From a phage: a DNA stretch of 64,000 nucleotides. The notes under the pieces were generated by a model. The model did not search any database, was not told the origin of the DNA, and saw only the letters and a list, made by a program, of their open reading frames with translations. The stretch is taken from the NCBI GenBank assembly GCA_012690745.1, contig GCA_012690745.1_4086.2; one strand, given 5' to 3'. Position 1 is the first letter of the stretch, and the number at the start of each line of letters is the position of its first letter. The translations under genes and the position numbers were made by a program. Below, in pieces: positions 29,623 to 33,701 of the stretch.

Positions 29623-29630
29623 AAAAGTGG

Positions 29631-29660
29631 TTGACTTCGGTCAGCCATTTTGCTATTATA
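29631..29660 (+). promoter_or_regulatory. repeated hairpin-promoter module, copy 1
   Basis: TGGTTGAC-TTCG-GTCAGCCA hairpin overlapping TTGACT-18-TATTAT. Confidence 0.45.
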
Positions 29661-30862: not shown

Positions 30863-31006
30863 ATGACAGCATTAGATTCATTCATCGACGCAGTACTGGC
30901 AAAAACTGGCGAGGATCTGACCGCAGAACAATACGCGATGATCGAGCAATGCCAGCAAAACGGTAAATCGGTGAAAGATACTGTTAAGATTATCCGCAAG
31001 ATGTAA
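30863..31006 (+). CDS. small protein (47 aa)
   Basis: manual ORF MTALDSFIDAVLAK...; SD AGAGAGAA. Confidence 0.4.
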   Translation: MTALDSFIDAVLAKTGEDLTAEQYAMIEQCQQNGKSVKDTVKIIRKM

Positions 31007-31012
31007 GATTAT

Positions 31013-31040
31013 AGCCCACTGGTTAACGCTGGTGGGCTTT
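31013..31040 (+). terminator. terminator-like hairpin containing a Chi octamer
   Basis: AGCCCACTGG-N6-CTGGTGGGCT then TTT. Confidence 0.4.
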
Positions 31041-31111
31041 AATCATTTACCCTATACAATGCCAGTACTAAACCGTTTAACTCGTTAGAATGCGTTACAG
31101 GACGTTTAACA

Positions 31112-31309
31112 ATGATTAGCATGAAATCAGTACAAAAACAAATAGAAACATTATCAAAAATTAAACGTAAACAGTACTCCTTAGAATATACAATCAATGG
31201 TAACTATCATCTAATGAAAGAAAATAATTTTATAGTCATTGATGAATCATTGCAGATCATTAGTATAGTACTGAAAGCATTAATCAATGACAGAAAAAAG
31301 TTAAAATAA
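31112..31309 (+). CDS. hypothetical protein
   Basis: ORF track. Confidence 0.5.
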   Translation: MISMKSVQKQIETLSKIKRKQYSLEYTINGNYHLMKENNFIVIDESLQIISIVLKALINDRKKLK

Positions 31310-31314
31310 TCTAT

Positions 31315-31343
31315 TGACAAATTATGCCAGTACTGGCATAATA
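31315..31343 (+). promoter_or_regulatory. sigma70-type promoter
   Basis: TTGACA-17-CATAAT. Confidence 0.5.
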
Positions 31344-31638
31344 CTTACATCAAGACGAGAACGTCACTAACCCATAGGGTGCACAAATGTAACTATATAA
31401 TATCGATCAATAAATGATCAAAAAAGTACTGGATCAATTTAGCATAAGGCGTATAATTCTGATCAAATCTTGATCAAAGGCAATAAACGTAGTTGAAATT
31501 ATATAGAAAGTACAAAGGCGTTACCATTCGTGGTAATGCTGGGGAATATGTAGTATCATACGGTTTGAATAAAATCAGTACTAGTAGTATTATTGTAGCA
31601 TTACAGTACTATAGTATTTTTATAATGAGGTTAAAATA

Positions 31639-31896
31639 ATGGCTGTTGGATTCGCGAAGGACGGGGCCGAGCAAGACGAGATTAACGCAGTGATTCAGGC
31701 CGCTGTAAACCACGCTAGAACGCAAATTAACGCACAAATAGAATCACTGATACATTGCCTCGACTGCGGCGATAAAATCCCTGAGAATCGCCGCCTGGCC
31801 GTTAAGGGGTGTAAGTACTGCATCACTTGCCAGGCTGATCATGATAGCATATTCAAACGCAATCCCCGTAATTGTTGGCATAGATCTATGAGATAA
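31639..31896 (+). CDS. TraR/DksA-family C4 zinc-finger protein (putative)
   Basis: C-x2-C-x17-C-x2-C (HCLDCGDKIPENRRLAVKGCKYCITC); SD TGAGG. Confidence 0.55.
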   Translation: MAVGFAKDGAEQDEINAVIQAAVNHARTQINAQIESLIHCLDCGDKIPENRRLAVKGCKYCITCQADHDSIFKRNPRNCWHRSMR

Positions 31897-31902
31897 AAAG
31901 TA

Positions 31903-31930
31903 TTGACAGTGCTGTTAGTTAGTGTATAAT
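31903..31930 (+). promoter_or_regulatory. early-type sigma70 promoter
   Basis: TTGACA-16-TATAAT. Confidence 0.55.
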
Positions 31931-31959
31931 ATTTTATATCTTAACTGAGGATTGAAATC

Positions 31960-32316
31960 ATGGGTATACAACATATCACGCGTACTACAGACAATGGTGA
32001 GATCACTGGCTATCAAGTACAAGGCAAAGTAGCACAATTGCAGTACTGGTTTGTTAAACGTGGCATTGTTGCACCGGATCTTGATTATGATCGTGTAGCG
32101 TTTATTGATTCTCTTTATGTTGATCCCGATAATCGCGGTAACGGTGAAGGTACTGAATTAATGAATGCCTTTATTGATGCCGCCGATGATTCAGATTGTA
32201 TCATCTTAGAATGCGATACGGGAGAAGATAACGAGTTTAATCTTAAAGAATGGTATGAAAGTTTTGGTTTTGAAGTACTGATTAACTGTGAATATCCTAT
32301 AATGATTTTATCCTAG
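31960..32316 (+). CDS. possible GNAT-like acetyltransferase-fold protein
   Basis: IDSLYVDPDNRGNGEGTELM resembles GNAT motif A (R-x-x-G-x-G); weak. Confidence 0.5.
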   Translation: MGIQHITRTTDNGEITGYQVQGKVAQLQYWFVKRGIVAPDLDYDRVAFIDSLYVDPDNRGNGEGTELMNAFIDAADDSDCIILECDTGEDNEFNLKEWYESFGFEVLINCEYPIMILS

Positions 32317-33654: not shown

Positions 33655-33672
33655 AAAGATTTAAAAAAGGGA

Positions 33673-33701
33673 TTGACTCCGGTCAGTCCCTTTGCTATTA
33701 T
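33673..33701 (+). promoter_or_regulatory. repeated hairpin-promoter module, copy 2
   Basis: GGGATTGAC-TCCG-GTCAGTCCC hairpin overlapping TTGACT-17-TATTAT. Confidence 0.45.

What the first reader, a model, noticed from the sequence alone, without database searches (positions are those of the whole stretch)
31344..31638. Long untranslated leader with five clustered GATC sites upstream of the TraR/DksA-like gene
Between the 31315 promoter and ATG 31639 lie about 300 nt without an ORF. Within 31405-31475 the heptamer TGATCAA or close variants occurs five times around an internal TATAAT. Clustered GATC is the hallmark of Dam/SeqA-controlled regions and could make this promoter methylation-sensitive or a binding array for a regulator.
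Basis: partly seen in the sequence, partly recalled or inferred. Interest (0 to 1): 0.45.

Follow-up and report, generated by a model that had tools for sequence, protein, structure and literature searches.

The report
Phased GATC pairs at phage promoters
The five clustered GATC sites are real and are the only such cluster in this 350-kb jumbo phage genome. They sit on the tandem promoters of a small optional gene cassette, not in a gene-free leader, and whether they act as a DNA-methylation switch is plausible but untested.

Summary
The window is a 121Q-like jumbo coliphage (Asteriusvirus). Five GATC sites, all GATCAA in one orientation, lie at 31405-31475. This is the only place in the 348.5-kb 121Q genome with 4 or more GATC per 75 nt, and GATC is depleted genome-wide (0.57 of expectation).

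The "300-nt ORF-free leader" is wrong. Positions 31310-31639 are a 330-bp optional cassette flanked by an 11-bp direct repeat and absent from phAPEC6. It carries a strong promoter P1, a family-wide box CTAACCCAYAGGGTGCA followed by a -10-like hexamer, the GATC array around a second promoter P2, and a real 48-aa gene (gp293, phrog_38664, dN/dS 0.24). That gene's stop codon overlaps the start codon of the DksA-like gene.

The array is built from GATC-N7-GATC pairs, 11 bp start to start. The same box, GATC-pair array and gp293 homologue recur in Erwinia phage Hallingskeid, where the DksA-like gene is 8.5 kb away. A further conserved GATC pair sits beside another promoter-like site elsewhere in 121Q. 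The phage encodes a Dam-family methyltransferase.

Best reading: a DNA-level operator array on early promoters, most likely read through adenine methylation (SeqA-type). A dedicated TGATCAA-binding regulator is the main rival. No methylation or expression data were available, so dam-dependence is untested.

The parts
31300..31310 (+). Left copy of the 11-bp direct repeat GTTAAAATAAT; it includes the stop codon of gene 292.
   Evidence: repeat family D4, spacing 330
31311..31640 (+). 330-bp optional cassette, an indel relative to phAPEC6. One repeat copy is counted as part of it.
   Evidence: In phAPEC6 the gene 292 stop overlaps the DksA-like ATG within a single GTTAAAATAATGG. phAPEC6, ph0011 and UE-S1 align in two pieces covering 68% of the query.
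31314..31342 (+). Promoter P1: TTGACA-17-CATAAT with a TG extension (11 of 12 consensus positions). It belongs to the repeated 'AGTACTGGCATAAT' promoter class.
31321..31342 (.). Perfect 22-bp palindrome ATTATGCCAGT|ACTGGCATAAT covering the spacer and -10 of P1; operator-like.
   Evidence: inverted repeat I5
31367..31384 (+). Conserved box CTAACCCATAGGGTGCAC. There are 7 copies in the window and 8 in 121Q, all inside the terminal-repeat region and all co-oriented with transcription.
   Evidence: shared by other jumbo phages
31396..31401 (+). TATAAT two bases downstream of the fixed -10-like hexamer slot that starts 9 nt after the box (here TATATA, 31394-99). Inferred -10 of a box-dependent promoter, 'Px'.
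   Evidence: conserved aaaTGTAtCTATtATAt after every box. That it is a promoter is inferred, not shown.
31405..31419 (.). GATC pair 1, GATCAATAAATGATC (11 bp start to start). Invariant in 9 Asteriusvirus sequences and present in Hallingskeid.
31425..31430 (.). AGTACT hexamer between pair 1 and the third GATC. In the PBECO4 group this position carries a further GATCAA instead.
31430..31435 (+). -35-like hexamer of P2 (TGGATC here, TTGATC in the PBECO4 group). It contains GATC number 3 (31432-35).
   Evidence: 16-nt spacer to the TATAAT at 31452
31452..31457 (+). TATAAT, the -10 of internal promoter P2.
   Evidence: invariant in all 9 sequences
31396..31478 (+). Two copies of the 27-nt unit TATAAT-N3-GATCAA-N5-GATCAAA (31396-31422 and 31452-31478; 74% identical, spacing 56).
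   Evidence: repeat family D1
31461..31475 (.). GATC pair 2, GATCAAATCTTGATC, at about +1 to +15 of P2. Present only in the 121Q-type allele; lost in the PBECO4 group, and Turkey5 has lost the fifth GATC.
31493..31639 (+). gp293: a 48-aa protein of unknown function (phrog_38664) with a TTG start. Its stop overlaps the DksA-like ATG (TAATG).
31626..31629 (+). GAGG Shine-Dalgarno sequence for the DksA-like gene. It is supplied by the cassette and lies inside the gp293 coding sequence.
31639..31896 (+). TraR/DksA C4 zinc-finger gene (121Q gp294).
   Evidence: PF01258, E = 2e-11; phrog_54

Best explanation
The GATC cluster is a DNA-level operator array on the tandem promoters of an optional early-gene cassette. 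The cassette is 330 bp, lies in the long terminal repeat of a 121Q-like jumbo phage, and consists of P1, the conserved box with a -10-like hexamer (Px), P2, the small gene gp293, and then the DksA-like gene, whose start codon overlaps the gp293 stop.

The working unit is a pair of GATC sites 11 bp apart, about one helical turn, so both sites face the same side of the DNA. One pair lies just downstream of the Px -10 and about 45-60 bp upstream of the P2 start. A single GATC forms the -35 of P2. In the 121Q-type allele a second pair covers the P2 start.

The most likely readout is the adenine-methylation state of these sites. Incoming virion DNA would be fully methylated by host Dam and/or the phage's own Dam-family enzyme. 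Replication would then make the sites hemimethylated, and a GATC-pair reader of the SeqA type, or RNA polymerase itself at the -35 GATC, would change promoter use. That would tie expression of gp293 and the RNAP-binding DksA-like protein to the onset of phage replication.

Shown: the cluster, its uniqueness, the pair geometry, its conservation, the cassette, the real small gene, and the Dam-family gene. Inferred: that Px and P2 fire, that the sites are methylated, and that a methylation reader acts there.

My confidence that this is a DNA-level cis-regulatory array of some kind is about 0.65. My confidence that it is read through methylation is about 0.4.
For: 1. Uniqueness. This is the only window with 4 or more GATC per 75 nt in 348.5 kb, in a genome where GATC is at 0.57 of expectation. 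Simulations give p = 0.002-0.013.

2. Geometry. Both pairs are exactly 11 bp apart. The PBECO4 group has two such pairs at offsets (0, 11) and (16, 27), and Hallingskeid has two. About 0.3 exactly 11-spaced pairs are expected in each terminal region.

3. Invariance of the core. GATC is invariant in all 13 sites across three lineages, while the flanks vary a little: T precedes 11 of 13 and AA follows 11 of 13.

4. Conservation. The block from the box through the -10 to pair 1 is 87.5% identical between 121Q and the Erwinia phage, while the adjacent protein is only about 36-40% identical. At the homologous place Hallingskeid has its only cluster of 4 or more GATC in 30 kb.

5. Position. The sites overlap promoter elements: the -35 of P2, the 27-nt repeat TATAAT-N3-GATCAA-N5-GATCAAA found twice, and the -45 to -60 zone of P2.

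6. A second locus. A further GATC-N7-GATC pair lies next to a terminator and a late-like TAAATA motif at 121Q 215908. Its GATC cores are conserved while its spacer varies in 121Q, PBECO4, vB_Ec-M-J and phAPEC6.

7. Methylation capacity. 121Q gp417 is a PF05869 Dam-family N6-adenine methyltransferase (E = 7e-32).

8. Fit with SeqA. In vivo, SeqA binding is best at GATC spacings near 10 or 20 nt (PMC2912659), and a SeqA dimer was crystallised on two GATC sites about one turn apart (PMC2691817).

9. RNA structure is not favoured. The P1 leader folds no better than shuffled sequence (z = -0.76).
Against: There are no methylation, transcript-start or expression data, so nothing here shows dam-dependence.

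The flanks are more conserved than GATC alone requires (TGATCAA, all in one orientation). This fits a dedicated sequence-specific protein at least as well as it fits Dam or SeqA.

The downstream pair is dispensable. It is absent from the PBECO4 group and from the recombinant metagenome contigs, and Turkey5 has lost one site.

The CBB homologue of gp293 has no GATC array. The whole cassette is missing from several sister phages, so whatever it does is accessory.

Within the terminal repeat GATC is not depleted (observed/expected 1.18), which weakens the 'retained against selection' argument locally.

The GATC specificity of gp417 is assumed from its family, not shown. One source states that efficient SeqA binding in vitro needs phasing of two to three helical turns (PMC5145175).
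Confidence: 0.4

Rival explanations
1. The TGATCAA repeats are operators for a dedicated sequence-specific DNA-binding protein. This could be a phage regulator, or gp293 acting on its own promoter. It would bind head-to-tail or as dimers on one face of the helix and repress or activate Px and P2 independently of methylation.
For: The motif extends beyond GATC: T precedes 11 of 13 sites and AA follows 11 of 13. All five sites in the window have the same orientation. The sites sit at classic operator positions, the -35 and +1 to +20. A 7-bp repeat with a 4-bp A/T spacer and 11-bp periodicity resembles winged-helix or iteron-type sites (my own knowledge). The array is linked to gp293-family genes in two genera.
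Against: No candidate regulator was identified. gp293 has no Pfam or PDB relative, and its AlphaFold model is poor (pLDDT 66). The CBB homologue of gp293 has no such array. The second GATC pair at 121Q 215908 keeps GATC but not the AA flank, and it is retained in phAPEC6, which lacks gp293. Only one or two such loci exist in 348 kb.
Confidence: 0.25
2. The array acts in RNA. Each GATC pair is self-complementary and forms a small hairpin at the 5' end of the Px and P2 transcripts and inside the P1 leader. These hairpins would protect the mRNA from 5'-end-dependent decay or modulate translation of gp293.
For: Each pair folds into a 5-7-bp hairpin of -4 to -6 kcal/mol, better than shuffles (z = -2.6 to -4.7). 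If Px and P2 fire, the hairpins would lie at about +1 to +20.
Against: Pairing is automatic for any two copies of a palindrome, so it is not independent evidence. There is no covariation: the arms are always the same TGATCA. The hairpins are weak and AU-rich. The whole leader is not structured (z = -0.76). There is no Rfam match. The third GATC is unpaired. The pair at the second locus lies upstream of a promoter-like motif rather than in a leader.
Confidence: 0.1
3. The cluster is a cis-acting site for DNA metabolism: a P1-pac-like packaging site, a replication origin, or an injection-stop site.
For: The P1 pac site is a 161-bp segment with seven TGATCA/G hexamers whose Dam methylation controls cleavage (PMC10028697). 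The local sequence is AT-rich and promoter-proximal, like transcription-primed origins (my own knowledge).
Against: The site lies 11.4 kb and 9.3 kb from the two ends of the terminal repeat as mapped from vB_Ec-M-J. The whole cassette is absent from phAPEC6, ph0011 and UE-S1, and one search found no similar array elsewhere in those genomes. The large terminase is T4 gp17-like, not PacAB.
Confidence: 0.05
4. The cluster has no function of its own. It would be a by-product of a local 56-bp duplication of a promoter unit plus -35-like TTGATC hexamers, carried along with a mobile cassette.
For: A 27-nt direct repeat accounts for four of the five sites. TTGATC is a 4-of-6 match to the -35 consensus. 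GATC is not depleted inside the terminal repeat. The downstream pair is variable.
Against: Pair 1 and the -35 GATC are invariant across alleles whose adjacent coding sequence is only about 60-74% identical. The pair geometry recurs in Hallingskeid and at a second locus with a changed spacer.
Confidence: 0.15

Closest known systems
SeqA/Dam-controlled GATC clusters (E. coli oriC, dnaA promoter) and SeqA binding to GATC pairs
   Same: Several GATC sites lie within less than 100 bp. Pairs sit on one face of the helix about one turn apart, the spacing range reported as most favourable for SeqA (PMC2912659, PMC2691817). The hosts carry Dam and SeqA (established knowledge for E. coli), and the phage adds its own Dam-family enzyme.
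   Different: The cluster sits on the early promoters of a lytic jumbo phage, not at an origin. The flanks (TGATCAA) are conserved beyond what Dam or SeqA need. Methylation and SeqA binding are untested.
Bacteriophage P1 pac site (seven TGATCA/G hexamers, cleavage governed by Dam methylation; PMC10028697)
   Same: The same hexamer, TGATCA, is repeated in two groups within a short segment of phage DNA.
   Different: P1 pac lies inside pacA and marks the packaging start. This array is in a promoter region 9-11 kb from the terminal-repeat ends, inside a cassette that sister phages lack, and the terminase is T4-like. It is not a pac site.
Methylation-sensitive promoters and operators (Mu mom/OxyR, agn43, pap/Lrp, IS10 pIN, dnaA P2). 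Recalled from my own knowledge; not tested here.
   Same: GATC sites lie inside or next to -35, -10 or regulator sites, so that methylation state changes transcription.
   Different: No OxyR or Lrp motif was identified. The pair architecture with exact 11-bp spacing and the TGATCAA flanks is not a described feature of those systems.
PeSL mobile regulatory cassettes of T4-type phages (PMC2839356)
   Same: The terminal-repeat region is packed with small non-essential genes, each with a strong sigma-70-like promoter. Some promoters are embedded in terminator stem-loops. Close relatives differ by whole promoter-plus-gene cassettes.
   Different: This cassette's boundaries are an 11-bp direct repeat at gene ends, not two PeSLs. 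Its own P1 has a palindromic spacer instead of a terminator hairpin.
T4 middle promoters (MotA box replacing the -35). This is an analogy for the conserved box only; recalled from my own knowledge.
   Same: A conserved box sits at a fixed distance (9 nt) upstream of a -10-like hexamer, placed downstream of a consensus early promoter.
   Different: The box sequence is different. No activator is identified, and promoter activity has not been shown.

Membership tests
Dam/SeqA-type GATC cluster | Two or more GATC sites on the same helical face, within about one to three turns of each other. | tested here: met
   There are two pairs exactly 11 bp apart. The same spacing is found in PBECO4, Hallingskeid and the second locus.
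Dam/SeqA-type GATC cluster | Local GATC density far above that of the rest of the genome. | tested here: met
   Five GATC sites lie within 71 nt. This is the only window with 4 or more per 75 nt in 348.5 kb; simulations give p = 0.002-0.013.
Dam/SeqA-type GATC cluster | A GATC adenine methyltransferase is available. | tested here: inconclusive
   121Q gp417 matches PF05869 (Dam) with E = 7e-32, but its sequence specificity is not known. Host Dam is assumed from established knowledge of E. coli.
Dam/SeqA-type GATC cluster | The sites are methylated, a hemimethylated state persists, and SeqA binds. | not testable with these tools
   This needs 6mA sequencing, EMSA or ChIP.
Dam/SeqA-type GATC cluster | Expression of the downstream genes depends on dam or seqA. 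| not testable with these tools
   This needs reporter fusions or infections in dam- and seqA- hosts.
P1-type pac site | TGATCA/G hexamers in two groups within about 160 bp. | tested here: met
   There are three exact TGATCA plus CGATCA and GGATCA, arranged 3 + 2. The P1 description is from PMC10028697.
P1-type pac site | The site marks the packaging start or genome end and is indispensable. | tested here: not met
   The site is 11.4 kb and 9.3 kb from the terminal-repeat ends, and the cassette is absent from phAPEC6, ph0011 and UE-S1.
P1-type pac site | A PacA/PacB-type terminase. | tested here: not met
   By annotation only: the 121Q large terminase is annotated as T4 gp17-like.
Long untranslated leader or structured RNA element | No coding sequence between the promoter and the gene. 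| tested here: not met
   gp293 occupies 31493-31639; it matches phrog_38664 and has dN/dS 0.24.
Long untranslated leader or structured RNA element | A stable or conserved RNA structure, or a known RNA family. | tested here: not met
   The fold z-score is -0.76, there is no Rfam match at gathering threshold, and there is no covariation in the hairpin arms.
PeSL-like mobile regulatory cassette | A strong sigma-70-like early promoter plus a terminator stem-loop, repeated through a region of small non-essential genes. | tested here: inconclusive
   Promoter: yes. Neighbouring modules have hairpin-embedded promoters (29624 and 33666), but this cassette's P1 has no terminator hairpin.
PeSL-like mobile regulatory cassette | Insertion/deletion polymorphism between close relatives at cassette borders. 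| tested here: met
   A 330-bp indel relative to phAPEC6, flanked by an 11-bp direct repeat.

The most novel reading that the evidence does not exclude
Pairs of GATC sites one helical turn apart are a reusable epigenetic timing device in this family of jumbo lytic phages. On fully methylated incoming DNA the promoters of an optional early cassette (a 48-aa protein plus an RNA-polymerase-binding DksA-like factor) are in one state. Once phage replication produces hemimethylated DNA, a GATC-pair reader (host SeqA or a phage protein) flips them. The same device is used at a late-type promoter elsewhere in the genome (121Q 215908). The phage's own Dam-family enzyme would set the clock.
Probability: 0.2. 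Interest if true: 0.6.

Novelty: new member of a known kind. Interest (0 to 1): 0.38.

Why it matters
If the array is methylation-read, it would be a replication-coupled switch for early genes in a lytic jumbo phage. It would control a protein predicted to act on host RNA polymerase (DksA/TraR type). That would extend Dam/SeqA-type epigenetic control, known from chromosomal origins, transposons and temperate phages, to temporal gene control in giant virulent phages. It would also give a function to the phage-encoded Dam.

Even without that, the work corrects the local annotation. The 'leader' is an optional promoter-plus-gene cassette, the small gene gp293 is real, and the DksA-like gene gains extra promoters and a Shine-Dalgarno sequence from the cassette. 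As it stands this is a well-supported cis-regulatory curiosity, not a surprise for specialists.

Tried and rejected
- tRNA and Rfam scans of the window found nothing.
- Pattern scans for 'box + GATC pair': IMG/VR returned only 121Q itself plus chance hits in GC-rich contigs. The metagenome scan returned only two close Asteriusvirus contigs, a 121Q/PBECO4 recombinant, plus chance hits. No further distant lineages were found.
- The large protein search with gp293 returned one near-identical protein.
- Pfam and PDB sequence searches with a 5-member profile gave nothing usable. The AlphaFold model had pLDDT 66, so no fold search was run. gp293 therefore remains of unknown function.
- IHF consensus (WATCAANNNNTTR) and the oriC 13-mer (GATCTnTTnTTTT): compared by eye, each site mismatches or has the wrong polarity. 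Rejected, without a formal scan.
- Minus-strand promoters using TTGATC as a -35: only one 9-of-12 match (31421 to 31392). Not pursued.
- Pac, origin or injection-stop function: rejected on position and dispensability.
- gp293 as the sole reader of GATC pairs: weakened, because phAPEC6 lacks gp293 but keeps the pair at the second locus.
- Two literature searches for transcriptomes or promoter studies of Asteriusvirus or RaK2-like phages found nothing specific. The CBB paper describes only generic promoter classes.

Full report
**What the window is.** Window 31000-32000 is 99.6% identical to Escherichia phage 121Q (NC_025447, 146293-147293). It is 88-96% identical to about 35 other Asteriusvirus jumbo phages. 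In relatives whose ends were determined, this region lies inside a long direct terminal repeat, annotated at 21,525 bp in vB_Ec-M-J. Mapping the ends of that repeat onto the window places it at about 20013-40717. The finding therefore sits 11.4 kb from one end of the repeat and 9.3 kb from the other. The region is packed with small genes, each with its own consensus-like sigma-70 promoter.

**Checking the observation.** The promoter at 31314-31342 (TTGACA-17-CATAAT, TG-extended) is there. GATC starts at 31405, 31416, 31432, 31461 and 31472. All five sites read GATCAA on the + strand, three are exact TGATCAA, and a TATAAT lies at 31452-57.

The window holds 136 GATC against about 206-210 expected, and no other 75-nt stretch has more than 3. 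I assembled the whole 121Q genome from seven fetches. It holds 620 GATC against 1091-1182 expected (ratio 0.57). This site is the only place in 348,532 bp with 4 or more GATC per 75 nt. Random-placement simulations give p = 0.0017 for the window, 0.0046 for the genome and 0.013 against the local background. The local figure matters because GATC is not depleted inside the terminal repeat: observed/expected is 1.18 there against 0.39 in the rest of the window. The hexamer GATCAA is not enriched overall (32 observed, 42 expected). What is unusual is the clustering, the common orientation and the spacing.

**The 'ORF-free leader' is not one.** In phAPEC6 the stop codon of the gene 292 homologue overlaps the ATG of the DksA-like gene within a single GTTAAAATAATGG. 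In the window this 11-mer occurs twice, at 31300-31310 and 31630-31640, exactly 330 bp apart. The whole interval is therefore an optional cassette. It is present in 27 of the 37 matching records at full length, and it is missing from phAPEC6, ph0011 and UE-S1.

Its 3' half is a gene. ORF 31493-31639 (TTG start, 48 aa) is annotated as gp293 in 121Q and matches phrog_38664 with E = 9e-34. Compared with the PBECO4 allele it is 74% identical in DNA and 62.5% identical in protein, with no indels. It has dN/dS 0.24 in frame, against 1.8 and 6.4 in the other two frames. Homologues exist in Erwinia phage Hallingskeid (60 aa) and, unannotated, in Pectobacterium phage CBB (49 aa).

The gp293 stop overlaps the DksA-like ATG (TAATG), and the GAGG Shine-Dalgarno sequence of the DksA-like gene lies inside gp293. 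The DksA-like identity of 31639-31896 is confirmed (PF01258, E = 2e-11; phrog_54).

**Anatomy of the non-coding part (31311-31492).**

- P1 (31314-31342) has a spacer and -10 that form a perfect 22-bp palindrome. It belongs to a repeated 'AGTACTGGCATAAT' promoter class with 23 matches in the window.
- The box CTAACCCATAGGGTGCAC (31367-84) has 7 copies in the window and 8 in 121Q. All lie in the terminal-repeat region and all are co-oriented with transcription. Its distance from the upstream promoter varies from 17 to 24 nt. It is always followed by aaaTGTAtC and then a -10-like hexamer at a fixed 9 nt. The same module occurs in 106 phage records of Escherichia, Klebsiella, Salmonella, Cronobacter, Erwinia and other hosts. 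I read the box plus -10 as a second promoter class ('Px'), by analogy with activator-dependent middle promoters. This is inference.
- A 27-nt unit, TATAAT-N3-GATCAA-N5-GATCAAA, occurs twice, at 31396 and 31452. The second TATAAT, with TGGATC 16 nt upstream, makes promoter P2. In the PBECO4 group the -35 is TTGATC, giving a 10-of-12 promoter. The five GATC sites are therefore: a pair just after the Px -10, which is also 45-60 bp upstream of the P2 start; one site in the P2 -35; and a pair over the P2 start.

**Conservation.** In nine Asteriusvirus sequences the stretch from P1 to the P2 -10 is almost invariant, including GATC 1-3. By contrast, the 5' two-thirds of gp293 differs by about 35-40% between the 121Q and PBECO4 groups.

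The PBECO4 group replaces the AGTACT between GATC 2 and 3 with another GATCAA. This gives two 11-bp pairs at offsets (0, 11) and (16, 27), and the group lacks the downstream pair. Turkey5 has lost the fifth GATC. Two metagenome contigs carry a recombinant: 121Q-type upstream sequence joined to PBECO4-type downstream sequence.

Erwinia phage Hallingskeid is otherwise too distant to align at DNA level. It nevertheless has CTAACCCACAGGGTGCACAAATGTATCTAAAATATATTGATCAAGAAATGATCAAA, followed by TTGATCAATAATTGATC around a TTGACT-17-AATAAT promoter, directly upstream of its gp293 homologue. This is the only cluster of 4 or more GATC in its first 30 kb, and it holds both of that region's 11-spaced pairs. 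The DksA-like gene of Hallingskeid is 8.5 kb away. The array therefore belongs to the gp293-family gene, not to DksA. The CBB homologue has a plain promoter without GATC, so the link is not universal.

**The unit is a GATC pair.** All six pairs at the gp293 promoters of the three lineages are exactly 11 bp start to start. Genome-wide, 121Q has four such pairs, with about one expected by chance. Two are ours and one lies in a coding region. The fourth, at 215908, lies between a terminator and a TAAATA late-like motif. At that locus the GATC cores and the 11-bp spacing are kept in 121Q, PBECO4, vB_Ec-M-J and phAPEC6, while the 7-nt spacer changes (AAAAAAT, ATATTTT, AAAAATT).

**Mechanism.** RNA-level explanations are weak. 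The P1 leader folds no better than shuffles (z = -0.76). The small hairpins formed by each pair are automatic for two copies of a palindrome and show no covariation. There is no Rfam match.

Essential cis functions (pac, origin, injection stop) do not fit the mid-repeat position, the absence of the cassette from sister phages, or a T4-type terminase. The resemblance to the P1 pac site, with its seven TGATCA/G hexamers (PMC10028697), is therefore only formal.

A DNA-level regulatory array on the promoters explains the position, the phasing and the conservation. Several points favour a methylation readout:

- the invariant core is exactly the Dam site;
- the second locus conserves only GATC and the spacing;
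- the pair geometry matches what SeqA prefers (spacings near 10 or 20 nt in vivo, PMC2912659; a dimer on two sites about one turn apart, PMC2691817);
- GATC is costly enough to be depleted across most of the genome;
- the phage encodes a PF05869 Dam-family methyltransferase, gp417.

The conserved T and AA flanks and the single orientation point instead to a dedicated TGATCAA-binding protein. I put about 0.65 on a DNA-level regulatory array of any kind. Of that, 0.4 is on a methylation-read array and 0.25 on a methylation-independent specific regulator.

**Origin of the cassette.** The 11-bp direct repeat covers the stop codons of gene 292 and gp293 and the first T of the following sequence. 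It fits either microhomology-mediated insertion or deletion between the repeats, and I cannot tell which. The surrounding region resembles the hyperplastic regions of T4-type phages, with their promoter/stem-loop (PeSL) cassettes (PMC2839356). Neighbouring modules even embed the -35 in a terminator hairpin.

**Verdict.** This is a new example of a known kind of element, a GATC-based promoter control region, in an unusual host: a lytic jumbo phage. Interest is moderate.

Noticed in passing
whole window; also 121Q genome and L052 (Hallingskeid 1-30000): The palindrome AGTACT is about 12-fold over-represented: 262 in the window against 21.6 expected, 903 in 121Q, and 192 against 9.5 expected in Hallingskeid. 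It occurs in genes and in promoters, both in the P1 spacer and directly upstream of P2-type -35 hexamers. In the PBECO4 group one AGTACT in the array is replaced by GATCAA.
   Followed up: partly
121Q genome (L013-L019), including the window: The tetranucleotide GCGC is completely absent from 348.5 kb (0 observed, 153-291 expected). Several other GC-rich palindromic hexamers are absent from the window. The phage encodes a C5-cytosine methyltransferase, gp91.
   Followed up: no
window 20013-40717 versus the rest: GATC depletion is confined to the part outside the terminal repeat. Observed/expected is 1.18 inside and 0.39 outside in the window; in 121Q it is 1.2 against 0.53.
   Followed up: partly
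window ~20013 and ~40717: The ends of the 21.5-kb direct terminal repeat annotated in vB_Ec-M-J map here, at 95.8% and 87% identity. 121Q has a 2-kb stretch with no annotated gene just inside the left end (121Q 135194-137161).
   Followed up: partly
window 23295, 25371 (- strand); 29682, 31367, 33719, 37027, 39281 (+ strand): The box CTAACCCAYAGGGTGCA, followed at 9 nt by a -10-like hexamer, always lies downstream of a strong promoter. It is confined to the terminal repeat and shared by jumbo phages of many Enterobacterales (106 records, 439 places). It may be an undescribed promoter class or another leader element.
   Followed up: partly
window 31321-31342, and 23 related sites (for example 25413, 23330, 27666, 30525): A promoter class with a conserved AGTACTGGCATAAT. 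At 31321-42 it forms a perfect 22-bp palindrome over the spacer and -10, which looks like an operator.
   Followed up: no
window 29624-29651 and 33666-33693: Terminator-like hairpins (AAAGGGATTGACTCCGGTCAGTCCCTTT) carry the -35 TTGACT of the next promoter in their stem. These are PeSL-like terminator/promoter modules (PMC2839356).
   Followed up: no
121Q 215908-215922 (L017 15908; outside the window): A second conserved GATC-N7-GATC pair lies between a terminator and a TAAATA late-like motif upstream of gene 467. It is kept in PBECO4, vB_Ec-M-J and phAPEC6 with a changed spacer.
   Followed up: yes
L020 1140-1345 (Pectobacterium phage CBB 16844-17049): An unannotated 49-aa homologue of gp293. 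Its start codon lies inside a 13-bp inverted repeat, AGTACTCGCATAG...CTATGCGAGTACT, that could sequester it.
   Followed up: no
L049 ~790-1140 (Cronobacter phage GAP32 ~8876-9226): About 350 nt with no convincing ORF lie between a box-type promoter and an annotated rho-independent terminator. This may be a non-coding RNA.
   Followed up: no
window 1000-31000 versus 121Q: The window is not 121Q itself. The coordinate offset changes by about 1.5 kb between window positions 1000 and 31000, so there is at least one indel, probably in the array of RCC1-like repeat genes.
   Followed up: no
L005 2014-2442 (Hallingskeid): An HNH endonuclease gene lies immediately upstream of the promoter, box, GATC array and gp293-homologue module. 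There is no such gene next to the cassette in 121Q.
   Followed up: no
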